From NCBI RefSeq assembly GCF_036365525.1, contig NC_090412.1, positions 6,676,123 to 6,740,122 of the forward strand: a stretch of 64,000 bases of DNA, read 5' to 3'. The stretch is from Heterodontus francisci (Eukaryota). Of the stretch, positions 2,207-25,071 are shown one piece after another (position 1 is the first letter of the stretch; each line of letters begins with the position of its first letter). Below the pieces are notes generated by a model. It ran no database searches, was not told the DNA's origin, and worked only from the letters and a program-made list of their open reading frames with translations. Made by a program: the position numbers and the translations under genes.

Positions 2207-2536
2207 GCACAGTGGCGCGGTGGTTAGCACCGCAGCCTCACAGCTCCAGCGACCCAGGTTCAGTTCTGGGTACTGCCTGTGCGGAGTTTGCAAGTTCTCC
2301 CCGTGACCGCATGGGTTTCCACCGGGTGCTCCGGTTTCCTCCCACAGCCAAAGACTTGCAGTTTGATAGGTAAATTGGCCATTGTAAATTGCCCCTAGTG
2401 TAGGTAGGTAGTAGGAGAATGGTGGGGATGTGGTAGGGAATATGGGTTTAATGTAGGATTAGTATAAATGGGTGGTTGTTGGCACAGACTTGGGCTGAAG
2501 GGCCTGTTTCAGTGCTGTATCTCTAAATAAATAAAT
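2207..2536 (+). mobile_element. HE1-type SINE
   Basis: Same family as 255-603; (TAAA)n tail; ATCTCG occurs at both ends (possible TSD). Confidence 0.9.
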
Positions 2537-3577
2537 CTCGAGTACAAGCCTAATAAACAGTTGGATTCCCGCACTCCTCAGAGTGTGGTTTTCTCCTTTA
2601 TAGAATTATCAGATTGTGACAGCACTCAAGGAGGCCATTCGGCCCTTACTTGGCAAAGGATTAATTTTGGACAGCAGCAAAAACTTAACTTGGCATCACT
2701 CCAGCATCCATATTTTACTACATCAGTTAGGGAAGCATAAAAATTGGCAATGGGCGTTGTATGGATATGGTAGTTTCAGTGCTTCTGATGGTAAATTAGC
2801 AGCCCAGATGTTGATGAATTCAGGTTCCACCATGACTAAGTTGTGAAATTGATCTCAGTAAGTTGGGTAATTTGTGGAAAATCCAACTTGTGTATCACTT
2901 ATGTCCTTCAGTGGAGCTGCCATCCCTATTTGGTCTGGTCCACTGGGAATGTGGTGTAAGCAGGCACAACCTGAGGTCAACTAGAAGCTAATTCCTGATG
3001 GAATTTCCATTGACTGACTGCATACAACCGGCCCCACACTCCTGTCGGCTGAAGTGGCTGAGGAAGTCATTCAATGGTAGAAACAATTGCTACCAAGTCG
3101 AGGGCTTACTGCCATCTTCGGCTTCACAGGGCGTGGAGAAATGTTCAATAGATAGTGCCTTTCCCAAATCTTGAGACAAAGAAATAGCCCAACAAGTCCA
3201 GACCTTTTCCTTGGATCACTCTGACCTTCACCTTCCAACTGCTCTCTCTCCAGAAACATAGCCAATTGAACTTGATGCAGTCACACTGTTCCCTGCCTGG
3301 TAACTTACTTCTTGGCTCTCTAGCTCTTTGGGTGAAAAGAAACCCACCTGATTTTTCCCAGCAGCACTCGGCCTGCTGACTCCCAAATCAGCAAATATCT
3401 GAATTGTTTCATTTATTTTGTGGCAAAGTCTAACTGTTGATTGGGGATGGGGAGGCAGTGCTGGGTTGAGTGTTCCACCACTCTCAATTCGGCAGTTGTC
3501 TCCGCTGTACTGTTCTTCCAAGTCTACTCGATCTGATCTGCGAACTTATTCTCTGGAGACTATACAAAAATCTATGC

Positions 3578-3885
3578 TCACACACCCACTTCAATACTGA
3601 GGGAGTGCTGCATTGTCAGAGGTGCCATCAAGTTCAATTGGCTAAACCGAGGCCCTGTCTGCCCTCCCAGGTGGACGTAAAAGATTCCACGGGCCTCCAT
3701 CAAAGTAGAGCAGAAGAGTTCTCCCTGGTGTCCTGGCCAATATTTATCCTTCAGTCATCATCACAAAAAACAGATTATCTGGTCATTATCACATTGCTGT
3801 TTGTGGGATCTTGCTGTGTCTAAATTGCCTGCCGCATTTCCTACATTCCAACAGTGACGACACTTCAAAAGTACTTCATGGGTTA
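3578..3885 (+). mobile_element. Deu-domain SINE (SacSINE1/AmnSINE-like), partial
   Basis: Core ...aaaccgaggccctgtctgccctcccaggtggacgtaaaagat...cagattatctggtcattatcacattgctgtttgtggg..., repeated many times in the window. Confidence 0.8.
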
Positions 3886-6800
3886 CACCTTTTATAGGAG
3901 TGTACCATTTTTACATAAAAGGCAATTATTCAGAAGACCTTGTTTTCTAATTCATTTTGTTTCCATAAAAAAAAATTCCAGGTTTTGTACTTGCTTTCCT
4001 CCTGATGGGAATTATTTCGGGAACGTGGCGAAGGAAGTTCCTTGCTCCCAAACAGATAAATTCCCGAAAATGCCAAGCTGTTTTGCTGCCTTGAGTAAAT
4101 TGTCTGTTTGAAAACTATAATGAATATTATCAATGTGGTAGAGAAATGAATTGGCGCAGCAGTGGTGACACAGAGCAGTGCTATGTGGGTTTATGGCCGT
4201 GATTCCCTCGACACCACCGACTCCCCGCTCTGAGCCATGCAAATATGGAGATGCGCTAAGCAGAGGGCAGGTGCTTCCCCCATGGGGGCATCCTCGGTTG
4301 CTGCAGTTCGGTGCTTCCCCCAATAGGAAGGAAAAATCGAAAGGAGAGTCAGTCCGGAGTTGGTGTTGCACACTCGGAGATGCACAACACAACAGCCTCA
4401 GTGGAGTTTTCAGTACTGTCACCAACACAGGCCAACGCTTTCCTCCTCAGGATTACATTTATTTCAAAGAGATTTGAGAAAAATAGGTTTGGGTCAGTGA
4501 CTAAGCAGAAGGGTTTTTTTTTTCCTGTATTACTGGCCGCCTGTGCCTTGCTGAAAAGAGAAGGAATGAAACTATCAAAAGCGGAGAGCTCCCACAATCC
4601 CCTCTATAATGGCCATCAGCAAAAAAAACTTCAACAGGTAAAGAAAGGAAGAGGTGTCATCGATATAGCATCTTTCACAACCTCCGGACCTCTCAAAGCA
4701 CTTTACAGCCAACCAAGTACTCTTTCAAGTCTTGTCATGGTTGTAGTGTAGGGAACACGGCAGCCCATTTCCCACATTATGCTGGAGGAATCACTACATG
4801 AATACCCACCTCCTGCCATCCCACCCCCACACTCCCACCATGTCCATCCTTGCACCATCCAGTTTTCCCAGGCTAATTGGAAAGAACATGCTCTTCGAAA
4901 CCTAATGGGATGATTTTCACCAGACAGACCAAAATCCTTTGTCCCCATCTCCAATATTTCTGTAACGAATAACCAGAATTACTGTAGGCAAAAAAATTAA
5001 AAACACGCACTTTATATAGCTTTCCAATGATCTTTCTCTCTCAGTTGCTCACAGCGAGAAAGTCACCTTTAATTCTTGTTGACTCCAGGATGATCGTAGA
5101 GGGTTGACGACTCTGATCAAGCTCCGCAATTTAATAGGTTAGATTTAGACAAGCTCCTTCTACGCTGCCCCACCAAATTCACCCTGATCCCAGCCTCTCT
5201 TCCTATACCAGTGACATTTTGTGGGTCTTTCAGAGTGCAAAATAGGTTGCCCCTGTTGAAATTATGTTGAGCTCGTCCCGGTGAGCAACTTTGTTTCAGT
5301 ATAGTAATTCCAATAATTGAGCCTAATGGCTGGAAGGAAATGCTGTTCCTGTTGGCTCCTTTAGATTGTGAGTGCTTGCACTGAACTATACAATCTGCAA
5401 TAAAGGTTCTCAAGAGAGACAGGGAGAGCAGTTCTGGGGAGATGGACGGCAGCCAAATTGGCAAGTCAAGCATATTTAAAATTCAATTTCTTTGTATCTA
5501 AGAAATGTCTTTTCTGTATAAGAATCCTCTTCGTGACTGCAAATAATCAAACACAGTACGCAGTGGGTCATCTCTGAAGACAAGCTATTAAACTGAGGCC
5601 TCTGTTGAGACGGTTCATTAAGAGGTCTTATGGCACTATACGAATTAGAGAAGGGAGCTTTTCCCTTGCCCTGACAAAGATTCCCCCCCCCCCCCCCCCC
5701 CACAACCAGCAGCACCTAAAACGGGAAAACTGGTCTCCCATCTCATTGCTGTTTATGGGATCTTGCTGTGTGCAAAATAGCCGCTGCACTTTTCTATAAA
5801 ACAATAATGACTTCAGTTCAAGAGCAGTTCATTCACGAAGCTTTGAAGCATCCTGAGACACAATATAAGGCACCACAGAAAAGCAAGACATTACGGAGCA
5901 TTGATGTGTATGAAGTTATAAAAATGCATTTATATGTAAAATTCTACTGTTACACAGTGCAACCCTTTTATTTGATTTACAGTTAGGGGGCAGGGTTACA
6001 CAGAAACTTTAGTGCACTTTTTGTTTTTTTTTGTTCATTTCCTGTTGTGGTACACTCAGAAATCAATGTTTTTGCTGGGGCCTTATGCTCACGTCCAGTT
6101 CTTGCAGTGATTGATTGTATCTCCCTTTTTTTCCCCTCCTCGAATTGGTCTTCACACAGCAGCCAAATTAACTGTGGTCAAAGGCTGTAACAGAAGAACA
6201 AGGCAGCTACAGGAGAAGGTGGAAGCCATTGTTAGCCCCCTACCTTTTGGTTCAGGAAACTATCTGTAGATTAAAGGCACTTTTAGGATTGAATCTTGCA
6301 GCACAGAAGACCTTTCACGACTCTCTGCCAGAGTTGTCCCACACCCCAGCTTTTTCCCCCATAAGCCTGCAAGTTAGTCCTCTTCAAATACATGTCCGAT
6401 TGCCTTTTAAAGGTTCCTGTGGAATTTGGTTCCACAACCCTGTCATATAGTGCGTTCCAAATTGCAACCATCTGTGTGAAGATATTTCTCCTCATTTCCC
6501 CCTCTAGTTCATTTGCTAGTTATTTCAAATCTATGGGAGCAAAACTTGGCGTGTTGCAATTGTTAACTGCATTGACAGACAGGAGACGGATTCTGGAATT
6601 TTCATTGCGATATGAACAGGTTCAGCAACACTCACCTATTCCATTCGCTTCAGTACTTCCAAAGTTTTTGTGATACACCAAAGTCTGGTTCCTTCTCTCT
6701 GATTTGTAAGAGATGGGGCCAGCTGGTTATTGGAGGCAATGAGCTGTGATGAACACCAACAATATAACGGGGGTTGTGCGTGACTGGAAGCATGTCCTGA

Positions 6801-7656
6801 AGTCCAAACTCGTGCTATAGAGTCATAGTACCGAAGGAGGCCATTCAGACCATCGAGTCTGTGCTGTCTCTTTCAAAGAGCAATCTAGTTAGTCCCACTC
6901 CCCCACTCTTTCTTCATATCCCTGCAATTTTTTTCTCCTATTTATCCAATACCCTTTTGAAGGCTACTATTGAATCCACCGTCCTATCAGGCAGTGCATT
7001 CCAAATCCTAACCACTAGGTGCATTAAAAAAATGTGTATCCTTTGGTCCTTTTGCCAATCACCTTAAAACAATCACCCTCTGGTTATTGACCCTTCAGCC
7101 CTCAGAAACATTTTCACTTTAAAATCATCAAGGGGTTTAGATAGAGTAAGTATGCACCTCTAACAAATCTCCTCTTAGCCTTCTCTGCTCCAATGAGAAC
7201 AACCCCAGCTTCTCCAGTCTGTCCACATAACTCTAGTCCCTTATCCCCGGTACCATTCTGATAAATTACTTCTGTAACCTCTCCAAAGTGCATGTGAACT
7301 ATCAAAACGGCTAAGATATTTAACCTCTTCACCTATGTAATAGTTTTGTGAATCTGTGGGTTGAAGAATTGTAATTCCTTAATTCATTCCCTCTACCACT
7401 GGCTGCAGTGCATACCATCTACAAGATGCAGTGCAGCAACTCACCAAGGCTTTTTGATGCACCTTCCAAACCCGTAACCTCTACCACCTAGGAGGACAAG
7501 GGCAGCAGATTCATGGAGACATCACCATCTGTATTTTGCTTTTATGTTGTTGCAGTTTATATTTCCTGTTGTAAATGCAGTTTAAACTCATTTCCTAATT
7601 GTCACTGTGTGATTTGTGCAAGTTGCCTTGTCTTTTTATTTGAATATTTGAAACTT

Positions 7657-8711
7657 GAATCATAGAAAGTTTAAGGCACAGAAGGAGGCCACTTGGCCCA
7701 TCGTGTCTGTTCCGGCTGGAAAACGATCCACCTATTCTAATCCCACCTTCCAGCATTTGGTCTGTAGCCCCTCTGATTACGTCACTTGAGGTGCATATCT
7801 GGACTCCTTTTGAATGAGTTGAGGGTCTCTGCCTCAACTACCCTTTCAGGCAGTGAGTTCCAGACCATCACCACCCTCTGGGTGAAACGTTTTTTCCTCA
7901 TCTCCCCTCTAGTTTTTCTACCAATCACTTTAAATCTATGGTCCCTCGTCACTGACCTCTCTGCTAAGGTGAATAGACCCTTCACCTCCAGTCTATCCAG
8001 GCCCCTCAAAATTTTGTACATTTCAATCAGATCTCCTCTCAGCCTTCTCTGTTCCAAGGAGAACAACCCCAGCCTATCCAATCTTTCCTCATAGTTGCAT
8101 TTTTCCAGTCCTGGCAACATCCTTGTAAATCTCCTTTGTACCCTCTCTAGTGCAATTACATCCTTTCTGTAATGAGGTGACTGAACTGCACACAGTACTC
8201 AAGTTGTGGCCTAACCAATGAGTTATACAGTTCCAGCATAACCTCCCTGTTCTTGTATTCTATACCTCGGCTAATAAAGGAAAGGATTCCATATGCCTTT
8301 TAACCACCTTATCGACTTGTCCTGCTACCTTCAGGATCTGTGGACATTCACTCCAAGGTCCCTCACTTCCTCCACACTTCAGTATTTTCCCATTAATCGT
8401 GTATTCCTTTGCCTTATTTGACCTCCCCAAATGCATCACCTCACACTTCTCTGGGTTGAATTCCATTTGTCACTTTTCTGCCCATCTGACCAGACCATCA
8501 ATATCTTCCTGCAGCCGACAGCTATCCTCCTCACTATCTACCACACGGCCAATCTTTGTGTCATCTGCAAACTTCTTGATCATGACCCCTATATTTATGT
8601 CCAAATTGTTAATATAAACCACAAAAAGCAGGGGACCCAGTACTGAGCCCTGCGGAACGCCACTGGAAACAGCCCTCCAGTCGCAAAAACACCCGTCAAC
8701 AACTACTCTTC
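7657..8711 (-). mobile_element. CR1-clade LINE 3' portion (RT C-terminus and 3' UTR), frameshifted
   Basis: ORFs MEFNPEKCEVMHLG... and ...YEERLDRLGLFSLEQRRLRGDLIEMYKI...FTQRVVMVWNSLPERVVEA; tail TTCTATGATTC. Confidence 0.92.
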
Positions 8712-9640
8712 ACAAGTACAACGTTAATAGATTTTAAAAAAAGAAACAAGCCATTTAATTGCCATCAAAATGGGTTTGCTCGATCAAGGTCAGGAGCTAC
8801 AGGTTGCAGACCCCTGCCCTAACCTGTCAGCCACCTGCAAATATTACCATTAAACTACACAATTGTGCAGAAAAGCTTCAGACAGAAATGTGACCACATA
8901 GAGTTGGGGAGAGGAACATCAGGGGTAATTGGAGAGGAGAGAGATGGGAGACGTAACTGGCTCAAAAAGGGGGGATTCATCCCCCTCAGACCCTTCATGC
9001 TCTCCCCTAACCCCCCTGGGTGGTTGCAATTGTGGCCACAGGAATGGAACCTGGGAAATCTAAATGGTTCAATAAGGAGAGTAACATTCGGCACATCATT
9101 TGTTTTTTTACCATTACTGTTTAAGAACACTTGACACCAGGTCTGACTGCAGTGTGGAAAATGTTACATCTTGTGTTTGCAGAACCAGGATGTAATTTAC
9201 AAGCAGAGAAACGTACCCAATTTGATTGATTGCCAGTAGCCTTAAGATCTGTAAAACTGTAAAGCATATTTTTCCACACTGTGTTTCCACACTGCGCACA
9301 TAAAATTCTGAAGGAGGATGGGGCAAGTTAGACGGTAATGGAGACACTTTTCACCTTAAAAGTGAATTGAGTATATTGCTGTGAGTATCTTTGAGACGAG
9401 GTAACATGGGTGAGTGGTGGAGTGCATGTGGATGTTTATAATTCCAATCAGGCTCAACCTAGGGAAGGTGTTGAACCAGTGTCAAGTCATTTCTTTCACC
9501 AGAGAGAAGGCGGGGGGAGGGGGAGAGAGAGAATCAAATAAAACATGATGGGCCAACCCCTATTCCTTTTACCACCATCATTCAGCTCTTGTGAGGGAGG
9601 AAAGTATCAGGAGAGGTCTTGGGACATGTTATTTTTCCAG

Positions 9641-9884
9641 AGTATAAAAGGAAAATACTGCGGATGCTGGAAATCTGAAACAAAAACAAGAAATGCTGGA
9701 ATCACTCGGCAGGTCTGGCAGCATCTGTGGAAAGAGAAGCAGAGTTAACGTTTCGGGTCAGTGACCCTTCTTCGGAAGAAGACCCTTCCGAAGAAGGGTC
9801 ACTGACCCGAAACGTTAACTCTGCTTCTCTTTCCACAGATGCTGCCAGACCTGCTGAGAGATTCCAGCATTTCTTGTTTTTGTT
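9641..9884. mobile_element. Palindromic Penelope-derived insertion (two inverted pLTR ends)
   Basis: Arms 9679-9778 and 9785-9884, 2 mismatches in 100 bp; flanking direct repeat TGTTATTTTTCCAG at 9627-9640 and 9881-9894. Confidence 0.85.
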
Positions 9885-10480
9885 ATTTTTCCAGTGTGTG
9901 GAACCAGGAAATGATTCATGCCATGGTGGGAGGGGTGCAGAAGAATCTTTCAAAATAAGTTGGGGGGGAGATTGGGGGCTGGGATGATATTACGTAGTAA
10001 ATTTAGATTGAAGTTCATTGAAGACTAATGTCAAAGGTTCCTTTCAGTGGTCTTTGGAGGGTGTGTGTGGGCTGTGCATGGGGGCAGCTCATTTGAACTG
10101 TGTACGTAGAGCTTAGGAAGGAAGCTTTTGCTGTAATATGACGAGCTTATTCCATTTATCGTTGAAAGAAAAAAAAACAAATGTTTTAGAAAGCGATTGA
10201 GGACAGACTCACTGCTCCAAGCTGCCTTTCTTGGCTGTGCACACCATTTGGAGTCTCTGTTTACTGAAACATTTTTAGTATTTTTTTTACTCGCTTTCAA
10301 AGGCCAAACTTTCAGGGGCAGGTCATTATTTAGCATGTTTTTATAGGCAGAAAACATCAGATCACCTTGAAATTTACACTGGGCAAGATCAACCTCTGCT
10401 ATTCTAATGGAGGAGTTAACCTGTTTATTTTAACTGAATGGGTGCTTTTATTAAAACAGCGGACAAGGGAATCTCATTCG

Positions 10481-10760
10481 AAAACGTGCATTTATATAGC
10501 ACCTTTACCATAGTAAAACATCCCAAAGTGCTTCACAGGAGCGTTATCAGGCAAAATTTCATACCTAGCCATATAAGGAGATACTGGGAGAGATGAACCA
10601 AAGCTTGACCAGAGAGGTGAATTTTAAGGAGTGTCTTCAAGGAGTGAGAGGTTTGGGGAGGGAATTCTAGAGCTTGGGGCCCAGGCACCTGTAGGGACAG
10701 CCACCAATGGTGGAGCGATTGAAATCAGCGATGCACAAAAGAATCAGAGTTAGCGAGCAT
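10481..10760 (-). mobile_element. L2-like LINE 3' fragment; other copies at 1-130, 18625-19010, 26075-26270, 32965-33350, 36130-36520 and 55095-55500
   Basis: Recurrent ...gcatttatatagc...cttcacaggagcgttatc...gccacataaggagat...gggagggaattccagagc... block. Confidence 0.7.
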
Positions 10761-11406
10761 TTTACAGTTTTACCACAAATTTCAAAGCCCGTGTAACTTC
10801 TTTTGTCCCCTTTGATGTCCTTTAATCAAAGCATTTTATCTAGCAGGCTACTGGCAAATACAGCAGAAATCCAGATTGTGAGCTCCACAGATAACTTATG
10901 CACACCTTCCTCCAGTAAGACCTGAATGTGTGTGGTTTGAGGCTGTCGAAACCGCTTACGACTAAGTCACTTTAAAAAAAAAATAAAGCAGAAACATGAC
11001 ACAGTCAGAGAGTTGAGACTCAGGTTGGAGTGTTTCAGGAGGCATTTACAGACGGTTTCTAAAGGTGCACTGCTCTCTGGAGGGTGAATAAGCTTTTTGC
11101 TGCTCTGTTACATGTCTCGAGTGACTGCTGCCAGCTGCCATTTTAACTCTTGAGTTTGCAATGCAAATGAGGGAGTTTATCCAGACAGTAAGATCTGGAG
11201 CTGACTAGACGAGGAAAGAGCTGCAATAAAACAGTTTGTACATTGTGAGCAGGATGCTCACTGTCCTGTGTTAGTGGGTGAGAGTGTATGTGTGGGTGTA
11301 AATAGGCCAGAAGACAGCACTCGCACGTTCTGAAGTGTCACTTTGTTACAGATGCAAGTACAAAGAGACAATTAATGATCCAGGGCCCAACATTTACAAG
11401 CAATTA

Positions 11407-11547
11407 CTGTTCTGATGAAAGGTCACAGACCTGAAACGTTAACTCTGCTTCACACTCCACAGATGCTGCCAGACCTCTGAGTATTTCTAGCACTTTATCT
11501 GTTTTTATATTTCAGATTTCCAGCATCTGCAGTATTTTGCTTTTACA
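11407..11547 (+). mobile_element. Short Penelope-derived element with hammerhead core
   Basis: CTGATGA-A-AGGTC-aca-GACCT-GAAAC-GTT, then about 100 nt shared with the other copies; CAATTA on both flanks. Confidence 0.8.
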
Positions 11548-11669
11548 CAATTAACTACATTTGCTTCTTATAAGCAATGGCCTTAAAAAGGACAGGGCAA
11601 AAACATGATAAAAATTCCACAGACCCCATACTACCCGTTAGTAACCCAAGAGAGAAGAAAGAATTAAGA

Positions 11670-12095
11670 TATTTATATAACACCTTTCACAACCTCAGGA
11701 AGTCCGAATTTTACAACCAATGAGTAGTCACTGTTGTAATGTAAGAAACACAGCAGCCAATTTTCACACAGCAAGCTCCCACAGACAACACTGTGATAAT
11801 AACCAGTGATGTTGGTTTTAGTGATACTGGTTGTGGGATAAATACTGGGGGGAACTCCCCTGTTAGTTTTCGATATAGTACCAATGGATCTTTTATGTCC
11901 ACCTGAGAGAGCAGGCGTGGACCTTGGTTTAAGGTGTCATCCAAAAGGTGACCACTCTGCCCCTGACAGTGCAGTGCTCCCTCAGTGCTGCACTCGGATT
12001 GTCAGCCTACGCCTTGTTCTCAAGGTCTCTGGAGTGGGACCTGAAGCCACAGTCTTCTGACTCAGAGGCAAGACTGCTACCCACTGAGTCACAGT
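11670..12095 (-). mobile_element. Deu-domain SINE, near full length
   Basis: tRNA-like head near 12095, Deu core, and a tail ending ...aaggtgttatataaat on the minus strand. Confidence 0.8.
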
Positions 12096-12994
12096 TGTTG
12101 GACAAGAGTTGCAAGCATGTCATATAAACATTGACAGTACTGCACCTTTCCTGCTGTTAACTATACTTCTCTGTGGCCTGAATTCAAGTTACTCTAGTTA
12201 GGTATTGATCCTGTTTAGCCAGATGAAGCATTTAACGTGTGAAGCTGTTGCTCTTTGACACTAGTTTCAGAACGGGCAAAATTAGTGTATAAGTGTTGTG
12301 TGCGGTGGGTGGGGAGGGTTGAATGAGCTATTTTCTGTCACTGTGGTCAGCTCTACATCAAAAGCATGAGGTGATGAGGGTGTTATTGAAGAGACCTGCA
12401 GTCTTCAGGAGAGTTGCTAAGTGGAAATAAAATACATATTGATTCAAATGTTCGTGTATCCTTGCAGAAATTTGGTTGGCAGCACTATTTTGCAGTGTGG
12501 TACCATTGTAAGCAGTGTCTGTTGCTGGAGGAGGAAGCAAGAGAGCAAGTATTTCAGGAACTAAACAGTTTCACTTGCATCCAATCGAGTTTGAGTTCAC
12601 TTCGCATTCTCTTTAAATTCTTATTCAATTTCAACTCTTTATGAGGTGCTCCTCCCTTTAACACCTTGATCAAGAGGGGTTTGTGTGTGATTGGGCGTGC
12701 CTGTTAGAATCAGAGTAAATTTGTTATTTTGAAGCATGTTTTGCCTGGCAACCAGTGATAAACCCAGTGCTTTTTTTTTGGCACCAGTGTGAGCCAAATT
12801 AGAAGAACACAACTTGTAAAAATGAGACCAATTGCTATTTCAGATACTGCAGTGAGATTAAGTCAGATTTGAAATTGCACGTCTCTGAATTGGCACAAGT
12901 CCGACACAACAGTTCTTTTGGCAATCAAAAAGCTTCTCTCTGATTCGCACAGGGAAGCAAAGTGCCTTCTTGTTATTCCACTTATCACCCTTAC

Positions 12995-13073
12995 CTTGTA
13001 TAACAGTGTTGAGAAGCAGGATTACAGTCCAAGTGAGGAATTGGTAAGTTATCTTGCTCTGAATATCCATCAT
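12995..13073 (-). CDS. VSIR: Putative signal-peptide exon of a nested antisense gene, probably VSIR (VISTA)
   Basis: Minus strand ATG ATG GAT... encodes MMDIQSKITYQFLTWTVILLLNTVIQ-G and ends at a strong phase-1 donor AAG|GTAAGG (12994). A hydrophobic leader with a phase-1 intron is typical of Ig-superfamily leaders. Identity is inferred from the known nesting of VSIR antisense in this CDH23 intron; no IgV exon was found in the window. Confidence 0.6.
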
Positions 13074-13109
13074 TAGATTCCTCTCTCCCTGAACCAATCT
13101 TCTTTCATC

Positions 13110-13320
13110 TGCTAACTTCCTCGTCTGTGTTTGTATGTGAGAAAGAGAAACAGAAATCCTCGGTAATGTTGACTGTACAAGCTTTTGGTATCCACTTCAG
13201 GTCTGACAGTGCAAGGGAGCTAGTTACTGGCTGCGGACTGAACATGATGCAAGGAACTAGAAGCCAGTCATTTGCATGAAGGCGGAATAGAAAAATACTC
13301 GGTTTTAATTGGCCCTCACT
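13110..13320 (-). promoter_or_regulatory. Candidate proximal promoter of the nested gene
   Basis: Minus-strand CCAAT (13308-13312), octamer ATGCAAAT (13270-13277) and ETS-type GAGGAAGT (13115-13122) upstream of the leader ATG; motif matches only. Confidence 0.3.
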
Positions 13321-13579
13321 TCAGTGGCATTTTTCTTTGCTACTAACAAGCAGCAGGAGAGTTTGTTTTGAATTGAGAGAGAATTAAGTTGCCGCCTATT
13401 CCCAGTTGTTTGCATCTGTGCCCCTTTCAAGGAGACAAATGTAAAATATACCTATGTCAGTCTGGAAAAGTAAGACAAACTTAACCATCACCTTCATGTA
13501 AACTGACAGCCCAGAAACAGCCTGAAATAGAAGCTTTATGACATATGCGGGCAATGGATTACACTCAGTGCAGTGAGAC

Positions 13580-13854
13580 TATAGTTGCCAACTCTACTTG
13601 GATGTATCCCTGGAGGTTTAATCACAGACCCTCCTGTCTGCGATTGCCCCTCCCAGTCAAACTCCCTTTTTACCCCCATCTCCAATAATTATAAAACTAT
13701 TAAATGAAAGTGTTCAAAGAAAGTTTTTTTTGAAAAGCACAGTTTGTTTTCATGACCCAATGGTTATTCTCCCGTGTTGTTCCCAGCGGCATCCAGGAGA
13801 TTAATCTTCCATTCCTGGAGACTCCAGAGCAATCCTGGAGGGTTGGCAACCCTA
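13580..13854. mobile_element. hAT-like MITE; degraded relative at about 15300-15620
   Basis: TIRs TA(TA)GTTGCCAAC...GTTGGCAACCCTA; 8-bp TSD AGTGAGAC/AGTGAGGC (13572-13579, 13855-13862). Confidence 0.75.
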
Positions 13855-14486
13855 AGTGAGGCAAGGGCTAGACGTAGTTTTCGATGATTTGGTGTTAAAT
13901 CACTTTTGTGGCACTGGAAAATAAAAGTGTAAGCAAGTGTAGTTTTTTTAACGCAGCAGTGCAGAATTTATAAAGAGGGGAAGTGAGTGCTAACGGCACA
14001 AGATTTATTTGCAAGCAGTCCCTGAGGTGGGGCAAGAAGGGTGATGCACCAATTCCTGTCCCATTGAACATTTTGTTTTTTGAAGTGATGTTTCAAAGCC
14101 TGCTGCCATTTCTGCTTCGAATGTCAAAAAAAAATTCTCCCTGGAGGAATAATTTTAATTGCGAAAGTAAATAGCAGTTCCTTTTGTTGGGAACTTAACC
14201 CAAGCAATTTGTGAACTGAAACATTATCCAGCACGCAGTTAACCCCACACACTGCTGCCTTCCATGTTCATGAGATGCAGATTCCATCTGTCCTTGACCC
14301 AGATCCTGTGGTAGGTGAGAGATGACCACTTCAAGGACATGGTGCACAGTTGCCACCTCAGTTTGGACGTGTTCCTGCAGAGAATTAAGGTATCACTGGC
14401 CCAGACAGAGCAGCAGACAGAAGTTAACACATAGAGCTGCTGCCAAGAAAAGTGGCATCTGAAGAGAGATAAAAGGGGGAGATTCT

Positions 14487-15190
14487 TTTTTTTTTGTTCA
14501 TGGGATATAAGCATCAGTGGCAAGGCCAGCATTTATTGCCCTTAGCTAATTGCCCTTGAGAAGGTGGTGGTGAACTGCCTTCTTGAACCGCTGCTGTCCA
14601 TGTGGTGCAGGTGCACCCACAATGCTGTAAGGAAGGGAGTTCTCGGATTTTGACCCAGCGACAGTGAAGGAACGGCGATATATTTCCAAGTCAGGATAGT
14701 GTGTGGCTTGGAGGGGAACTTGCAGGTGGTGGTGTTCCCATGCATCTGCTGCCCTTGCCCTTCTAGGTGGTAGAGGTCATGGGTTTGGAAGGTGCTGTCT
14801 AAAGAGCCTTGGTGTGTTGCTGCAGTGCATCTTGTAGATGGTACACACTGCTACCACAGTGCGTCGGTGGTGGAGAGAGTGAATGTTTAAGGTGGTAAAT
14901 GGGGTGCCAATCAAGCGGGCTGCTTTGTCCTGGAAGGTGCCGAGCTTCTTGAGTGTTGTTGGAGCTGCACTCATCCTGGCCAGTGGAGAGTATTCCATCA
15001 CACTCCTGACTTGTGCCTTGTAGAAGGTGGACAGGCTTTGGGGAGTCAGGAGGTGAATTACTTGCTGCAGAATTCCCAGTTTCTGGCCTGCTGTTGTAGC
15101 GACAGTATTTATATGGCTGGTCTAGTTAAGTTTCTGATCAATGGTAACCCCAAGATGTTAATGGTGGGGATTCAGTGATGGTAATGCTGA
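14487..15190 (-). mobile_element. CR1/L2-group LINE 3' fragment (separate family)
   Basis: ORF MEYSPLARMSAAPTTLKKLGTFQDKAARLIG...SLHHRRTVVAVCTIYKMH (RT C-terminus-like); related pieces at 7385-7530, 50415-50550 and 54390-54640. Confidence 0.8.
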
Positions 15191-16136
15191 ATAAAGATAT
15201 GATATTTAAACAAGGGATAAAATAAGCTTGTATATCAATACATTAAGATACAGCAGGAGAAAAGGATTCTGGGTTGGGAAGGACAAAGGTGAACAGACAT
15301 TTTGCCTCCAACAGCCCTCCCTCTCCACCATCCCGCCATTGGTTGCTAGACAGGTCCATTTTCACAGCACACGAGCTTCCCACAGCCAATCAGAAAGTGA
15401 TCAGACTTTTCGCTGCCTGACTGTCAGTCAAACAGCTACTTTCCACCTCTAATATATTGAAAACTAATCAATAACAGCATTCAAAGAAAATTTCAGAACA
15501 ACACCTTTTTTTTTTGTATGGCCCCCCCGCCCCCCATGACTTTTCTCTCAGGTGTTGCTCGTAGCCGTGTCCTGGAGATTAATCTCCAATTCCTAGACAA
15601 ACCTGGAGAGTTGGCAATCTGAATATGCTGGTCTAACGATTTTAGATAAACAATCGTTCAGCCAATTCAGCAGGGACAAAGTGAGTCATTGTGCACAAGA
15701 TTGCTGGGAGTGTCCCGTCACACAGTGGGATGGGATTACTGAGGACCAGGCTAGTAGACATAACGTCACTTCTGATTCCCAGGGCTGTTTGCATTGCTGT
15801 GTGGAGAGGGGGCGGCGGGGTACATTTCTGGGTCTTTGGCCCAGGTGATTTGGGGTTGGGTGTGGTCTGGAGCTTTAAAGGGGAATTTAACCGTATGTTG
15901 TAGAACCAGCTGTTGTGATGAGAATGTGGAGCTCACTACCACAAGGATGTTTGAAGAGAGTAGCATAGATACTTTCAGGGGGAAACTAGATAAGGACATA
16001 AGGGAGAAAAGAGTAGAAGGATATGTCAATAGAGTGAGGTGAAGTAGGTTGAGAGGAAGCCTGTGAGGAACATAAGCACCATCATAGACCTGTGGGGCGA
16101 ATGAGACCAAACTGGTGGGGTTTCTGATGAGAAAGA

Positions 16137-16430
16137 ACAACTTGCATTTCTATAGCACTTTTCACAAGCTCAGAACGTCTCAAAGCACTTTACAGCTAAC
16201 GAAGTAATTTTGAAGTGTAGTTACTGTTGTAATGTAGGAACCACGACAGCCAGCTTGCACACAGCAAGATCCCACAAACAAGAACGTGATGATGACCAGA
16301 TCATTTGTTTTTGCGATGTTGGTTGAGGGTTAACTGTTGGTCAGGTCACCGGGGGAGAACTCCCTTGCTCTTCTTCGACACTGAGCCCAGGGGATCTTTT
16401 ACATTCACCTGAGAGTGCGGACGGAGCCTT
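16137..16430 (-). mobile_element. Deu-domain SINE, 5'-truncated
   Basis: Reverse-complement match to the same core and tail. Confidence 0.8.
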
Positions 16431-17579
16431 GATCTAATTGGTCATTTAGCCAACTCGATTGGTTGTCTTTGCACGCCCTCGGTAAATTTCCATTGGAGGG
16501 TTATCCCCTACTTGTTGGAATGTTTGATTTGAACCTCACTTGTTGTCAGTTGTAATTGTCATTGGCTCACATTTATATAGAACAATCAGACAAGTTTGAT
16601 GCAAACATCTAGTTGATGTAGAAGTGTACTGCCCAAATGTGTCACCCGAAGTGTGACATTGATCATTTTGCTGGACAGAATATATTATACACACAAGTTG
16701 TATTGTTATGTAATGTACACAGGAAGGTCGTAGCTCGGCAATATCAGAGTGCATCGGCTCTGGCAATTCATCACTGGGCTGCTGTCACGATATTGAAAGT
16801 TATCTTCCTCAGGTTAATGTCAGTCATGGACAATCTGATCTCCAGTGAAACGTCTGGCGGGAAAGTTGTGTAAATTGTAAGGAAGAAGAAAAAATATCAC
16901 CACGTTGTGATCAGAATGGCAGGACACTCTGAGACCCAGCTACTCAGTTTTGTTTTAATTCTTGTCCTTCGTGTTGTCCTCTGAACCTGTTGACTGTGAA
17001 TGCTCGGATGCAACGTGCTCCTAGCCTCGCTTAACTTCTACTTAACACGAACATTTTGTAGTGGCAGGAGGAAGTGGAAGCAAAGTAGTTTTGTAATGAG
17101 ATTTGTGAAATCTGTTCCTTTTGCGCAGTGTGACAGACTGCACACAATTAACATTTTTGCAAGATGGGTATTGACTTCAAAACATGACAGGGATATTATT
17201 AAAACATCTGCCTGGAGGAAATTGATTGGAGCTTATCCTTTTCATTAGAATCTGAGGTATTCAATCGTATCTGTTCCCCATTGGAATAAAGGGTGTTGGG
17301 AATTTGGGATATCCAAATTTTACCAGTTCACATACCAACACGAGTTGTGAATAGCAGGAGCTGTAGACTATGTGGGGAGAGATCAGTTCCCTTACATACA
17401 AATAAAAACCTTGAATACATTTTGAAGAAGATCCAATCTGGTGGTTTCCAGTCTGTAATCATTAGTCAGACGTTTCAGAGGATGTATTTTCAATCCAGGT
17501 TACTCCCATCCAGATAAGTGTAGGAAATTGCTGTCACCAGATGGAAAAGGACACGCAGTCCACCTCAGCTTATCCATCC

Positions 17580-17775
17580 AGTGCTGCGCTGTCAAAGGTG
17601 CTGTTTTTTGGATGAAACGTTAAAACGAAGCCCGGTCAGGTGAATGTAAAAAAAAAAAACAAATTCCACAGTATCTCGAAGAAGAGCAGGGGAGTTCTGG
17701 CCAGTGGCCTGGGCCAGTATCTATCCCTCAATCAACAGCATTGAAGGAAAAACAGATTATCTGGTCATTATCAAA
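17580..17775 (+). mobile_element. Deu-domain SINE fragment
   Basis: gaagagcaggggagttct...aacagattatctggtcattatca. Confidence 0.7.
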
Positions 17776-17822
17776 TTTACCTTTTTCCTAACTTGAACCC
17801 CTGTCCTACTGTCGCTGTTTAG

Positions 17823-17912
17823 CTTGAAGTCATGTTTCTGGCCTGTAACTTGTTCTCCTTGACTATAAGCATCAAGAAAACAGTGGTCATGGGACAAGGT
17901 GTTGCATCTCTG
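17823..17912 (+). mobile_element. RTE RT-domain fragment
   Basis: FLACNLFSLTISIKKTVVMGQ resembles the RTE motif F..AC..FGLTIS.KKT.VM.Q. Confidence 0.55.
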
Positions 17913-19242
17913 TGCCCTCTGCCCGCCACACTTCCTGCAGGATTCCAGCTGCCCTCCATTTCCAAGTATGGTATCATCTGCAAACTTGAGAGGCCATTTC
18001 TATTGACCTTCTGCATTGAAGTCATATCAAAGTGCCCTGTTTCAGAACTTGTGTTCTCAGTTTAAAGTAATTTTCGTACTGATCAGGGAACAGCTCAATC
18101 AACAGGAGAGAGTATGGGTTAGCTCAGCAGTGCTTACACAGACAGAAACTGGAGCTGAACTTCCAGTTGAGGATCAAAGGTTTCATGAGACATATTCAAC
18201 TGAAAATGTGAAATGCTCTAGATTGTTGGGTGTCTGAATGAAATGATTACATGCGTACAAAGTGAGGGGCATAGAATTGAATAGAAATTACAACGCAACC
18301 GGATCATCGGACTCAACCACACGAGCCATAGTCCTAATCCCATGTGCCATATCCCTTTATTCCCCTATTCTTCAAGCACCAATCTAACCCTTCTTAAATA
18401 TTAGTATAGTCTCTGCTTCAATCACTAACTTTGCTAGTGCATTTCACAGCCTCACAACCCTCTGTATAAAAAGTGTTTCTCCTACTCTCTGTCCTAAATC
18501 TCTTTCATTTAATCTTTGTCCCCTTGTTCTAGACACTGCACCCCTCCGCCCCTCAACTCAACCATTGGAAACAGTCTGGTTCTATCTACTCTGTCCCATT
18601 CCTTCATCACTTTAAACATCTCAAGAATAACATGCATTCATATAGCCCCTTCTTGACCTAGTAAAATATCGCAAGGCGCTTCACAGGAGCGTTATCAAAC
18701 AAAATGTGACGCCGAGCCACATAAGGAGATACAGGGCAGGTGAACAAAGATAGGTTTCAAGGCGGAGAGAGCGGTAGGGAGGTGGAGAGCTTTAGGGAGG
18801 AATTTCCAGAGCTTGGTTATCAGGATAAAACCTGGTGCTGTACCCACAAGCCTCTATTGGCTATTACTAGAAGCTCATCATGTGAAAAATGGCCAAGGTT
18901 TTTGGTCATCTATTCTAATACCTATGTGGCTCGGTGTGATAACGCACCAGTGAAGTGCCTTGGGATGTTTTACTATGTTCTGGGGCGCTATATCAATGCG
19001 AGGAGTTGTTGGAAATGGAGTACCCTGGAGTAGCAAACCATGCAGGCCTCCTGGGACTTAGCCCATGTAGCAGCATGTTTAATATGCCAGATATCTAACA
19101 AGTCACACTGCTTTATCACTTGCCACAGACTCCGTTTCCTGTCTGTGTTTATCTCGGCAGCCACTGGGTTTTAGACAGCGATGTTTATTTGGGTTTTTTT
19201 TTGCCCCTGCCAATCTTTGTCTCCACACATGCAGCTACTCAC

Positions 19243-19353
19243 CTTTAAGCGGACGCATCTCTTCAAATTTTCGTGCAGCAAGCCAAGAGTAACTGATGTG
19301 CTGTTTCCCATCTCTGCTTTTCGAGACCTCTGACAGCCAAGCCCGTAGTGTAC
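19243..19353 (-). other. Candidate upstream minus-strand exon, 111 nt, of the nested gene
   Basis: Acceptor cctcctgtgtattcccag, consensus donor AAG|GTGAGT. Open frame with ATG at 19311 in good Kozak context (gagATGG) encoding MGNSTSVTLGLLHENLKRCVRLK. Confidence 0.4.
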
Positions 19354-19666
19354 CTGGGAATACACAGGAGGGGTAACTAGCTACAGGTTGCAGATAATTA
19401 TTTGGGTTCATGCCTGCATCACCTGGAAGCTCACAGACTCCCCTCTGCCTCTTACCCTCATGATCCACAGACATTGCAAATAAATTGACCCCAAAACCTT
19501 CTGACCGTTGATGTTCATTCTGTTGCAGTGTTGGCAGAGTGTTGCAGCTTATCTTCACCAGATGTATTATAATTGCGCATTTCTTCTGTCGAAGCTCTGG
19601 GTGTGACCATAGCATAAAATTATTTTCAGTCACATTTTGGAGACGAAAGGCAATATGAACTAAATT

Positions 19667-19705
19667 GAGTTCTGATGAAGGGTCACTGACCTGAAATGTT
19701 AACTC
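19667..19705 (+). ncRNA. Minimal type I hammerhead ribozyme motif inside a short Penelope-derived element (19666-19801)
   Basis: GAGTT-CTGATGA-A-GGGTC-act-GACCT-GAAA-T-GTT-AACTC: stem I GAGTT/AACTC, stem II, conserved core. TSD-like ATAT(G/A)AACTAAAT at 19653-19665 and 19802-19814. Confidence 0.6.
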
Positions 19706-19891
19706 TGCTTCTCTCTCCACAGATGCTGCCAGACCTGCTGAGTATTTCCAGCATTTCTTGTTTTTATTACAGATTTCCAGCATCTGCAGTATTTTGCTTT
19801 CATATAAACTAAATGATGCAATTTAAGATGGGGTGCAGGAAAAGAGAGATCTCGAGGCAAAAATCTTAAAAGCTGGCAGGGCAAGTAAAAG

Positions 19892-20522
19892 AAAAGCAAA
19901 ATACTGCGGATGCTGGAAATCTGAAATGGAAAGAGAAAATGCTGGAAATAATCGGCAGGTCAGGCTGCATCTGTTGAGCGAGAAACATTTAACTCTCCAC
20001 CTTGCTCTCACGCTTGTCCCTTAGCCCTCGGTCTACTGCAGGCTTCCAGTGAAGCGCAACATAAGCTCAAGGAACAGTTTTGATTAGGGAGCTTGCACCC
20101 TTCTGGACTCAACATTGAGTTCAACAATTTCCGACTGTAAGCTCTGCCCCCATTTTGTTGCCTTTTCTATGCAGTTTTCATTCTTGCTCTTGTTTTGATC
20201 TTGTTTTTGCTTTCAGATGGCAGCTGTTCATTCACACCTCCACGAGACACATCTTCTGTTTCATTATTTCTCTCATTACCACTCCCTTCGGCACTGCCCC
20301 TCCAACTCTTCTGTCATTTAATCTCTCCTGTCTTTTCATTCTCTCACAGACCTATCCTTTTACTCTTCTTACCACCATCCCCCATTTGACCTGCTTAAAA
20401 CCTATTACGTTTCTAACTTTTCCCAGTTCTGACAAATGGTCACAGACCTGAAACATTCTTGTTTCTCTCTCAACAGAAGCTGCCATACTTGCTGAGTATT
20501 TTGAGCATTTTCTGCTTTTATT
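19892..20522 (+). mobile_element. Penelope-like element remnant: inverted terminal piece (19892-19990), GIY-YIG C-terminal remnant, 3' UTR/pLTR
   Basis: 20026-20135 reads, with disruptions, LGLLQASSEAQHKLKEQ..LGSLHPSGLNIEFNNF, typical of Penelope endonuclease C-termini. A degenerate hammerhead core lies at about 20425-20460. Confidence 0.75.
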
Positions 20523-20596
20523 TGCCGTTTCTTTGTTCCTTTATCTGTCCCCATGATATGTTTATGGTGCGAGATTTACACTTCTGTGTAAAAAAA

Positions 20597-21062
20597 AGAC
20601 AGACTTCCATTTATATAGCACCTTTCACAACCTCAGAACGTCCCAAAGCGCTTTACAGTCAATGAAGTACTTTTGAAGTGTTTTGAACTGTTGTAATGTA
20701 GGAAATGCGGCATCCATTTTGTGCACAGCAAGATCCCACAATCAGCAGTACAATGATGACTAGATCATCTGTTTTAGTGATGTTGATTGAGGGATAATTA
20801 TTGGCCTGGACACTGGGGAGAACTCCCCTGCTCCTCTTCAAAATCGTGCCATGGGATCTTTTACATCCACCTACGGGGACAGACAAGGGCTTCTAGTTTA
20901 ACGCGCTGCTCCGAAAGATGGCAACTTCGACTGCGCAGCACTCCCTCAGTACTGCACAGGAGTGTCAGTCTTGACTTCTGTGCTGAAATCCTGGAATGGA
21001 AATTGAACCCAGAACATTCTGACTCAGTGCTGAGTACTACCAATGGAGCCAAGGTTGTCACA
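20597..21062 (-). mobile_element. Deu-domain SINE, near full length
   Basis: Head, core and tail on the minus strand. Confidence 0.8.
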
Positions 21063-21133
21063 GCTATTGTTTGAGGCCTAGCTTCTCTCCCAGGGTCAGA
21101 GAACATATAGGAGTTATGGTGGGGGTTGTTAAA

Positions 21134-21180
21134 TCTCTCTCTCTCTCCCTCTCTCTATCACTTTCCATCTCTCTCTCTAT
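21134..21180. repeat. Imperfect (CT)n microsatellite
   Basis: tctctctctctctccctctctctatc... Confidence 0.8.
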
Positions 21181-22534
21181 CACTTGCAAACTCTTTCTCA
21201 CAGTATTTCTCTTTGTTCACTGTCGATTTCTTGTTTTTGCTTGGTGGATTAGTTAGGAAGGGGATCTTATCAGAGTTCGTTGGAAGTAAATAGGAACGGG
21301 TTAAGGACATAAGAAATGGGAGCAGGAGTGGGCCGTATGGCTCCTTGAACTGTTTAATAAGATCATGGCTGATCTTCTCCCTCAATTCCACTTCCCACCC
21401 TATCCTCATATCCCTTGAATATACTCAACAGTGAACATCCTCAGGCCTCTGGACTAGAGAATTCCCAGGATTCACAAGTCTCTGAGTGACAAAATTTTTC
21501 CTCATCTCTATCCGAAATGGCTGACTCTTTTCCTAAGACACTCAGTACCTAGTCCGAGACTGTCAGCCAGGAGGAACAGCTTCTCAGCATCTACCCTGTC
21601 AATAAGAACATAAGAAAAAGATATTTTCTCTAAACCAGAGGTAGGGAAGAAAGAAAGGAAAGAACAGGAGTTGGACCTGCACACGGCTTGATTGCAGGAT
21701 TCTGATGTGAGCTAACTAGGACGGAAACTCCCCAGTCTAACAGAGATGGTCAAACTGCATTCTGTTTGTGGAGCAGGCTATGGAAAATTGAGGCGTTGAA
21801 AGGTCATTGTCTTCCAGCAGTGATGCATCATGGTCTGCCATGGTCCCCTAGAGTTTGCCCTGTGGATTTTGGGAGGGATTTCCCGGAGTTTTTCTTGAAA
21901 TTTGTCTTGTGGACAGGGCAGGCATGGATGGGTTTGATTCTCTTCTCTCACCTTGAAGTATGTTGGTGTTTGCAAGAGGACCTGTGGGAGTTTAGTATCT
22001 GCAGGGTGTCCTCATTACAGACTGGAAACCACTAAGACGAGTGAGGGGAAGTGCATGGGTTCCAGCTGTATTTTTGCCAATGGGACGAACATGAAATTGC
22101 TTGGGAACAAAAATTCAACTTAAATTTCTTGAAAGGGACAGAAATTACTTGTTTGTTGCTTTTCATTTAAGCTTTAACCCCGCCCTTGCAAAAGTTGCGT
22201 TTCTGCCGGGCGGAAAATGTATTCCCCTATAGGAATAATTTGCATCTCTAAAATTGTGGGGGAAGGCTTCTTTTGTGTGTAAACTAATTTATAAATAAGG
22301 GGTTTACGATGCAATCACGAAAGCATGCAAAGGACATTTCCCCTGCATTCTTTCTAGCGTGAAAACAATTCCTTTGTTTCCTTTATCCACTAGCTCAGGT
22401 CTCCCAAGTAAAGCAATGGTACAGGTGCAACAAGCATTTAAATTATTTGGCACTGGTGAGAACGTAAAGTAAACTTGCCAATTAAATAAGGCCAACACCC
22501 AGAATATAATGGGTCATCTTGGTTTCAGCTGAGA

Positions 22535-23070
22535 TGTTAAACCGAGACCCCATCTACCCTCTCAGGTGGATGTATAAGATTCCCATGGCACTGTTCAAAG
22601 TGGAGAAGGGGAGTTCTCCCTGATGTCCTGGCCAACACTTTCCCTTGGGCCAACATCACAAAAGAAAACCAATTATCTTGGTGATTTTCACATTGTGAGT
22701 CTTTTTTTCTCTTTTGCCAACTACCTGGGTCGCATATAAAGTGTGGGGAGAGGGGGAAGGGTTGGCAAAGACTACAGGCCATAAAGGACCCAAAAGAAAA
22801 AAAGATCTTGCATTTATGTAGTACCTTTCATAATCTCAGGACGTCTCAAGGCACTTCACAGCTAATGAAGTACTTTTGAAGTGTAGTCACTGTTGTAATG
22901 TAGGAAGCATGGAAGCCAATCTATGCACAGCAAGCTCCCACAAATAGCAATGTGATAATGACCTGTTAAATCTGGTGAAGTTGCCCTCCACTGCTCCTTT
23001 TTTCAAAATAGTGCCATGGGGTCTCTCACATCCAACTCAGAGGGCAGACGGGGCTTTGGTTTAACGTCTC
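22535..23070. mobile_element. Two Deu-SINE fragments in inverted orientation (22535-22700 +, 22803-23070 -)
   Basis: Core matches on opposite strands. Confidence 0.7.
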
Positions 23071-23769
23071 CTCTGTTAAGGTGGTCGACAAGTGCCTGAT
23101 CACTCCCTCTCTCACCACATGGGACCCGAGCACCTGGCAGCCAAGAAGACCAATATTTCCTCAAGGGATGGGGGCAGAGACCATTGGATCCAGGAGGTAA
23201 GTGCCAACTCCCCACAATCGGAGCCCTCCACAACCCTTCCAGCCTCACCCTGACTTCGCTGAGGTGTCCAATTCCCCCCTTCCCAACTGCTCTCCCCCAT
23301 CCACACCCCCCCCCCCAAAAAAAAGGCCTCCAACCAGTTCAAGATGTGTAATGCATCCCGAAGGTCAGTTACTTTGGCTATTGTGACCTATTGTCATTCA
23401 CTACCAGAGAATGTCCTCTGCAAGACTTTAGTCTGGGTGTAGTGCCGTTCTTGACTATCAGCTGGCAGGTGAAGAGTTGGGGTCTTTATGGTGTGGCATT
23501 GATATTGGAAGGATGACAAGAAAATACATCCTTTGGTACATAACAGGCCAAAAATATCAAAACTAAGTCTATCCTGCAGCATCATTGCTCTGAGTTTGCC
23601 AGACAGTATTACCATAACCATGAATGGATATCATCTGGGCTTTATCAATGGTGACTATTCCTTTCATTGAAGCAGCCCATTCTTACATATCATTGTATGT
23701 GTAACAACGTTCCAAAGGTGGTAATGTATTGTGTAAAGCTAGTTTCGATTATGTGCCAAAGCAAATTGT

Positions 23770-24995: not shown

Positions 24996-25071
24996 ACAGG
25001 CACACTGTGCTGAATGGCCCCCTTCTGTACTGTACAATTCTATAACTAACTCTGTGTTCTGTTTATTGCAG

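What the first reader, a model, noticed from the sequence alone, without database searches (positions are those of the whole stretch)
12989..13124. Antisense nested gene leader exon inside the CDH23 intron, probably shark VISTA (VSIR)
Seen: a minus-strand 26-residue hydrophobic leader MMDIQSKITYQFLTWTVILLLNTVIQ ending in a strong phase-1 donor, 12 kb upstream of the first CDH23 exon here. Known: mammalian VSIR, a B7-family immune checkpoint, lies antisense in the CDH23 intron preceding this exon, with its leader exon nearest that exon. Inference: the nesting of this checkpoint gene in a hair-cell tip-link gene dates at least to the jawed-vertebrate ancestor, and the IgV exon lies left of this window.
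Basis: partly seen in the sequence, partly recalled or inferred. Interest (0 to 1): 0.7.

Follow-up and report, generated by a model that had tools for sequence, protein, structure and literature searches.

The report
First exon of shark VISTA gene
This is the ordinary, already annotated first exon of a shark's VISTA (VSIR) immune-receptor gene, which lies on the opposite strand inside the same intron of the hearing gene CDH23 that holds it in humans, so the arrangement is likely as old as jawed vertebrates.

Summary
Confirmed, and already annotated. The minus-strand leader (coding 13073-12995, 79 nt, phase-1 GT donor) is the first coding exon of VSIR/VISTA. Six more exons lie 21-41 kb to its left, outside the window. 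The seven GT-AG exons reproduce the 299-aa NCBI protein P0001 (XP_067876535.1, named VISTA) letter for letter. Contigs from 4 of 4 laid runs (2 samples, 2 studies) join base 12995 to the IgV exon. The gene sits antisense in an 80,000-nt CDH23 intron. Flanking exon sizes (129+228 | 222, 120, 181 nt) match human c.4489-4845 | c.4846-5368, and published human coordinates put a VSIR-annotated probe in that same intron. Ancestry of the nesting in jawed vertebrates is therefore well supported from two lineages. C10orf105 is nested antisense too. Corrections: the exon runs 5' of 13124, and the second ATG (13070) is the likelier start. Shark VISTA keeps all six cysteines and a His-rich ectodomain. It lacks the amniote 17-19-residue insert, a contiguous HHH triad and the tail YxxQ motif. 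Checkpoint function in sharks is inferred, not shown. Low novelty.

The parts
12995..13073 (-). VSIR/VISTA exon 1, coding part (79 nt, 26 codons + 1 nt, phase 1); likely signal-peptide exon. Second ATG at 13070 is the likelier start (25 codons)
   Evidence: N-terminus of P0001; spliced contigs
12987..12994 (-). 5' splice donor gtaagggt of VSIR intron 1
   Evidence: all 4 laid runs have a loose end at 12995
13074..13314 (-). 5' untranslated part of exon 1; contigs reach 13158, 13254, 13314 and (low depth) beyond 13800; true start not determined
13073..13108 (-). 11-codon upstream ORF (MKEDWFRERGI) whose TAA overlaps the first ATG by one base; use untested
1..12994 (-). In-window part of VSIR intron 1 (21,443 nt in all). 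It leads to exons 2-7 left of the window, on G000:C42 minus strand: exon 2 IgV 6667266-6667673 (408 nt), exon 3 6666300-6666368 (69), exon 4 TM 6662382-6662492 (111), exon 5 6656540-6656567 (28), exon 6 6654291-6654469 (179), exon 7 with stop 6648371-6648396 (26)
1..25071 (+). In-window part of the CDH23 host intron (80,000 nt in all; it starts after a 228-nt exon at G000:C42:6620966-6621193, the equivalent of human exon 38 ending c.4845)
25072..25293 (+). CDH23 exon downstream of the host intron, 222 nt, phase 0 (equivalent of human c.4846-5067)

Best explanation
The feature is the first coding exon of the shark's VSIR/VISTA gene, spliced in phase 1 across a 21.4-kb intron to the IgV exon, and it likely encodes the signal peptide of a type I membrane protein that probably acts as an immune-inhibitory receptor, as VISTA does in mammals. 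Shown: seven exons on the minus strand, all inside one 80-kb CDH23 intron, give a 299-aa protein with a hydrophobic leader, one IgV domain with six conserved cysteines, one transmembrane segment and an 88-residue tail; spliced contigs join exons 1-2-3. Inferred: transcription from its own promoter 5' of about 13160-13310, independent of CDH23 (as reported for mammalian microglia); start at ATG 13070; signal cleavage near Ala29; three disulfides as in human VISTA; nesting inherited from the common ancestor of sharks and bony vertebrates. The checkpoint function and its ligands in sharks are untested.
For: Exact reconstruction: the one boundary set that reproduces P0001 plus stop has AG acceptors and GT donors throughout, 900 nt. 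Spliced form: 4 of 4 runs have a loose end at 12995 whose 30 letters equal the first 30 nt of exon 2; single contigs of 2013, 808 and 1854 nt (X2, X3, X4) carry exons 1, 2 and 3 in a row, and all four runs skip the 897-nt intron 2 at CT..AC. Identity: the top four PDB sequence hits and top four fold hits are human VISTA; 14 of 16 closest full-length proteins are named VISTA by their source; one match in the own genome, 15 candidates scored. Leader conservation: N-termini of 17 of 18 cartilaginous-fish proteins hit this exon best in the 264-kb region. Same intron: shark exon sizes 129+228 | 222, 120, 181 equal the spacing of human splice variants c.4489-2, c.4846-3, c.5068-2, c.5187+2, c.5368+1 (PMC6826400 table); human c.4825 = chr10:73,501,658 (PMC13510221), c.4846-3 = 73,537,434, and probe cg23968456 'CDH23; C10orf54' = 73,521,631 (PMC11090417) lies between them.
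Against: The runs are only guessed to be RNA, are contigs, and sample S1 may be the source of the annotation itself, so only S2 (organism B) is independent; low-depth contigs also lie in intron 1 (X1 depth 7, X3 depth 4). Only exons 1-3 and the start of exon 4 have contig support. The human placement rests on one probe annotation and three papers whose genome builds I could not align from the text (PMC13510221 labels its numbers GRCh38 although they fit the other table). Function: the shark protein lacks the stretch carrying human H100/H101, lacks a contiguous H153-155 triad, changes F94/Q95 and has no YxxQ in its tail. These are the residues tied to PSGL-1/VSIG3 binding or proposed signalling in humans (PMC8088836). 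No signal-peptide predictor was available. One isoform from another shark (P0009) has a different N-terminus with no match here.
Confidence: 0.96

Rival explanations
1. The leader is a chance hydrophobic frame in intronic DNA, or the first exon of some other gene, and VSIR uses a different leader.
For: One isoform from another shark (P0009) has a different N-terminus.
Against: Contigs in 4 of 4 runs join 12995 to the IgV exon; 17 of 18 cartilaginous-fish N-termini match this exon; it is the only site passing the leader filter between the IgV exon and the next CDH23 exon.
Confidence: 0.01
2. It is the VSIR leader exon but not the first exon: an untranslated exon further upstream splices to the AG before 13124, as the finding's coordinates imply, at least in a minor isoform.
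For: A pyrimidine tract and AG lie at 13150-13125; contigs drop rare variants, and 3 loose ends were not shown.
Against: Contigs of all four runs pass 13124 without a joint, and no loose end is listed there.
Confidence: 0.07
3. The gene is VSIR and the nesting is ancestral, but the shark protein does not work as a pH-switched T-cell checkpoint; pH-selective PSGL-1 binding would be a later, amniote or mammalian gain, and the shark protein would use other ligands or another role.
For: The 17-19-residue insert is in 5 of 5 amniotes and absent in 11 of 11 non-amniotes aligned (2 residues in Xenopus); a contiguous F-G HHH run is seen in the three mammals aligned but not in the shark; no tail YxxQ.
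Against: Histidine still makes up 13 of 155 ectodomain residues (8.4%) against 8.6% in human (PMC8088836); H137, H144 and H145 lie in the F-G loop; the six cysteines, the R90-D140 pair (R87, D125) and the tail motifs are kept.
Confidence: 0.35
4. VSIR entered this CDH23 intron independently in sharks and in bony vertebrates.
For: Only two lineages were placed (this genome and human); no intermediate genome could be inspected.
Against: Same intron out of about 70 (count recalled); a second nested gene, C10orf105, is also inside CDH23 in both.
Confidence: 0.01

Closest known systems
RefSeq XP_067876535.1 (P0001), named V-type immunoglobulin domain-containing suppressor of T-cell activation, Heterodontus francisci, by NCBI
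   Same: Letter-for-letter the product of the seven exons found here, including this leader.
   Different: Nothing; the annotation starts at the first ATG, whereas the second has the better context.
Human VSIR / VISTA / PD-1H / B7-H5 / C10orf54 (PDB 6U6V, 6MVL, 6OIL, 8TBQ)
   Same: Single IgV without IgC, six cysteines in register, His-rich ectodomain, one TM, tail without ITIM/ITSM, location in the same CDH23 intron.
   Different: 30-33% identity in the ectodomain fold alignments; shark lacks 11 residues of the His-rich stretch and has a longer F-G loop with H..HH instead of HHH; no YxxQ; host intron 80 kb against about 36 kb in human (computed).
Other chondrichthyan VISTA orthologues (P0002-P0018, including chimaera P0018)
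   Same: 62-87% identity to P0001 in the aligned sets, same leader type in all but P0009, same domain order.
   Different: Their gene positions relative to CDH23 could not be seen: the protein tools give no genomic context.
PD-L1 / PD-1 and other B7-CD28 family IgV domains
   Same: V-set fold (Pfam PF07686 E 2.8e-10); weak sequence and fold hits.
   Different: PD-L1 scores far lower (E 0.0067 in sequence, about 1e-6 in fold) and lacks VISTA's extra disulfides and long C-C' loop (PMC8088836).

Membership tests
VSIR/VISTA orthologue | Single IgV domain (no IgC) whose best match is VISTA | tested here: met
   top four sequence and fold hits are human VISTA; model has one beta-sandwich region
VSIR/VISTA orthologue | Canonical Ig cysteine pair plus four extra cysteines (human C44/C178, C83/C145; PMC8088836) | tested here: met
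   C43, C53, C80, C130, C131, C173 present and invariant in 16 of 16 aligned proteins; the bonds themselves were not measured
VSIR/VISTA orthologue | Type I topology: leader, ectodomain, one TM, about 90-aa tail without ITIM/ITSM/ITAM | tested here: met
   hydropathy peak 193-211, 88-residue tail with no Yxx[QLIVM]; leader cleavage not predicted (no SignalP)
VSIR/VISTA orthologue | Gene wholly inside a CDH23 intron | tested here: met
   all seven coding exons lie between the CDH23 exons ending at C42:6621193 and starting at window 25072; human statement in PMC7525281, PMC9986543, PMC8235942, PMC10028170
VSIR/VISTA orthologue | Histidine-rich ectodomain | tested here: met
   13 of 155 residues, 8.4% against 8.6% in human
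Human-type pH-selective PSGL-1 ligand | Contiguous H153-H155 triad and H100/H101 cluster | tested here: not met
   shark F-G loop has H137 and H144-H145 separated by six residues; the H100/H101 stretch falls in an 11-residue gap
Human-type VISTA tail | Tail SH2-binding YxxQ motif (PMC8088836) | tested here: not met
   absent in P0001; present in the dunnart P0041; 1 of 6 tails tested has it
Immune checkpoint (function) | Inhibits T-cell or myeloid activation; binds PSGL-1 or VSIG3 | not testable with these tools
   needs cell and binding assays
Signal peptide exon | Cleaved N-terminal hydrophobic leader | tested here: inconclusive
   basic residue K7, hydrophobic core (9-residue mean 2.73), lies just before the residue where human crystal constructs begin; no cleavage predictor or protein data

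The most novel reading that the evidence does not exclude
Two antisense passengers, VSIR and C10orf105, have stayed inside CDH23 since sharks and humans split (about 450 million years, from my own knowledge), VSIR in the very same intron, because the locus is under a shared regulatory constraint; and shark VISTA preserves an ancestral form from before the amniote His-rich insert and the HHH triad, so the acid-pH switch that drug makers target would be a late addition. Intron-level conservation in a shark was not found in my ten literature searches, but the one paper most likely to report it (Flajnik et al. 2012) could not be read.
Probability: 0.15. Interest if true: 0.45.

Novelty: already known. 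Interest (0 to 1): 0.17.

Why it matters
As a gene call it adds nothing: RefSeq has the protein with this leader. The modest value is comparative. It pins the VSIR-in-CDH23 arrangement to the same intron in a shark and in human, which dates it to early jawed vertebrates, when adaptive immunity arose (own knowledge). It also offers a natural VISTA variant without the histidine triad and insert tied to pH-selective PSGL-1 binding, useful for asking which VISTA functions are ancestral.

Tried and rejected
Acceptor at 13124 (implied by the finding's coordinates): contigs pass through it, so rejected as the main form. Alternative leader like that of P0009: no match in the 264-kb region (best E 0.61). 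Another leader-like exon between the IgV exon and CDH23 exon 25072: none passed the filter. A missed CDH23 exon inside the host intron: no convincing one in motif scans (one loose motif hit at -36847 is not cadherin-like by eye), and exon sizes leave no gap against human. Paralogues: one match in the own genome, of 15 candidates scored. CpG island at exon 1: none, CpG observed/expected 0.17-0.35 in eight 500-nt windows. Jawless-fish relatives: none named among the 120 listed of 361 hits or among 10 of the 150 listed unnamed representatives that I looked up; this is weak and says nothing firm about absence. No RNA holder listed as RNA on record. Flajnik et al. 2012 (PMC3709836) is not held. Literature searches listed no paper whose title or abstract start reports VSIR nested in CDH23 in a fish or shark; some searches listed only 20 of 69, 25 of 34 and 12 of 34 papers. 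PMC12341078, PMC7721185 and PMC7290473 passages and the one held supplement of PMC10287777 gave nothing on the intron. Earlier scan notes: none. The AlphaFold model is moderate (mean pLDDT 66.4, pTM 0.47) and was used only for the fold search.

Full report
Observation. The minus strand carries ATG at 13073 and a 79-nt open stretch ending at 12995, followed by gtaagggt: 26 codons plus one base, phase 1. A filter for ATG + 12-39 open codons + phase-1 GTRAG + hydrophobic core, run over both strands of the window, returned only this site, from its two adjacent ATGs (no shuffled control). The plus strand holds cadherin exons (Pfam PF00028 in 6 of 6 plus-strand stretches given; the seventh stretch, the leader frame, had no family). 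In the alignments shown, their best-scoring stretch is CDH23. The first of them in the window starts at 25072.

The rest of the gene. The window is G000:C42:6676123-6740122. I fetched the 200 kb to its left; negative numbers below are extrapolated window coordinates (contig position minus 6676122). A motif scan found a minus-strand Ig exon at -8449..-8856. It matches Pfam V-set (E 2.8e-10), and its four best PDB sequences are human VISTA (E 1.9e-18 to 4.2e-18; next pIgR 7.4e-9). A protein search gave 16 hits among 38 candidates, 14 named VISTA by their source. The first, P0001, is 100% identical, begins with this leader and is RefSeq XP_067876535.1. Among AG/GT boundaries near the tblastn hits, one set of seven exons translates to P0001 plus stop: 13073-12995 (79 nt), -8449..-8856 (408), -9754..-9822 (69), -13630..-13740 (111), -19555..-19582 (28), -21653..-21831 (179), -27726..-27751 (26); 900 nt in all. 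The own-genome search found one copy among 15 candidates scored.

Splicing evidence. Seven runs hold part of the stretch; none is on record as RNA. I laid 4 of the 7 (2 samples, 2 studies). All four have a loose end at 12995, and its 30 letters equal the first 30 nt of exon 2. In X2, X3 and X4 one contig carries exon 1, exon 2 and exon 3 in order, and all four runs skip the 897-nt intron at CT..AC, which fits the minus strand. Against: these are contigs of guessed RNA, S1 may be the annotation's own source, and low-depth contigs lie in intron 1. Contigs pass 13124 without a joint, so the finding's right edge is not an exon boundary in the main form.

Start codon. The first ATG has C at -3 and is overlapped by the stop of an 11-codon upstream ORF; the second has A at -3 and G at +4. 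Nine of the 15 other proteins in alignment A1 start at the position of the second Met. I infer a 25-residue leader exon product, cleaved near Ala29; no predictor was available.

Which intron. The gene lies between a 228-nt CDH23 exon ending -54929 and the 222-nt exon starting 25072, an intron of 80,000 nt; neighbours measure 129, 120 and 181 nt. A table of human CDH23 splice variants (PMC6826400, one passage seen) has c.4489-2, c.4846-3, c.5068-2, c.5187+2 and c.5368+1, which give 357 (=129+228), 222, 120 and 181 nt. Human c.4825 is chr10:73,501,658, in exon 38 (PMC13510221, passages), c.4846-3 is 73,537,434, and probe cg23968456, annotated 'CDH23; C10orf54', is 73,521,631 (PMC11090417, passages). 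So human VSIR sits in the equivalent intron (intron 38 in NM_022124.6 numbering; IVS-37 in the table). Caveats: a single probe annotation, and the genome build is labelled inconsistently across these papers, though the numbers fit together. The antisense orientation of human VSIR is recalled, not shown by a call.

How it likely works. Shown: an antisense seven-exon gene inside a CDH23 intron, spliced from this leader, encoding leader, IgV, stalk, TM (193-211) and an 88-residue tail. Reported for mammals: VISTA expression appears independent of CDH23 (PMC7525281 and PMC9986543, passages), and VISTA keeps T and myeloid cells quiescent, binding PSGL-1 at acid pH through histidines and also VSIG3 (PMC8088836, abstract start and passages). 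Inferred for the shark: own promoter, signal-peptide targeting, three disulfides, inhibitory role. The six cysteines are invariant in 16 of 16 aligned proteins from chimaera to marsupials, histidine is 8.4% of the ectodomain, and the model's four best fold matches are VISTA. Against a human-type pH switch: the stretch with H100/H101 is an 11-residue gap, the HHH triad is H..HH, F94/Q95 differ, and the tail has no YxxQ. A 17-19-residue insert is in 5 of 5 amniotes and none of 11 non-amniotes aligned. A2 holds 16 of the 120 proteins fetched by then, chosen by me for taxonomic spread.

What is known. The protein is annotated. The human nesting is stated in four reviews or papers (passages). Ten searches listed no paper reporting the nesting in a fish or shark, judged from titles and abstract starts. 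Flajnik et al. 2012 on B7 family evolution, seen only as a reference entry in PMC11599192 (passages), is not held; it and its supplements may already say so. Named orthologues came from sharks, rays, chimaera, ray-finned fish, coelacanth, lungfish and tetrapods; none from jawless fish was named, which is weak evidence.

Verdict. Observation confirmed, interpretation supported, novelty low. Interest 0.17: an annotated gene, with a tidy but expected piece of conserved gene order.

Noticed in passing
L013:8669-9085, minus strand (extrapolated window -110915..-111331): A 138-aa uninterrupted frame matching Pfam DUF5527 (E 2.8e-54), which I recognise from memory as C10orf105. It lies antisense between CDH23 exons near -123,400 and -82308. 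In human, probe cg07571519 (chr10:73,472,315) is annotated C10orf105 3'UTR and CDH23 body (PMC10287777, passages). A second nested gene is thus shared; the exact human intron was not fixed.
   Followed up: partly
VSIR exon 4, G000:C42:6662382-6662492: The TM exon is 111 nt and phase 1-1, so it can be skipped in frame. P0005 (Mustelus isoform X2) and P0017 (Chiloscyllium, hypothetical) lack it; they are the 2 of 120 fetched proteins without a TM-like stretch. A secreted shark VISTA isoform is possible; the laid contigs of X1 and X3 continue into exon 4.
   Followed up: partly
window 13108-13073, minus strand: An 11-codon upstream ORF ends in TAA overlapping the first ATG (TAATG); a 46-codon ORF starts at 13245. 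Five proteins from other sharks have a short in-frame N-terminal extension in this region instead.
   Followed up: no
P0001 residues 102-103 in alignment A2: A 17-19-residue insert is present only in the five amniote VISTA proteins aligned; it corresponds roughly to the His-rich stretch of the human protein.
   Followed up: partly
window 24994-63188, plus strand: Seventeen cadherin-motif frames, the 25072 exon included, run through the window; only four were delimited (to 31276).
   Followed up: no
window about 7785-8709 and 14545-15125 (minus), 32030-32494 (plus), 39830-40471 (plus): Frames that look like decayed LINE (CR1-type) reverse-transcriptase fragments, recognised from memory in the ORF list; not tested.
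   Followed up: no
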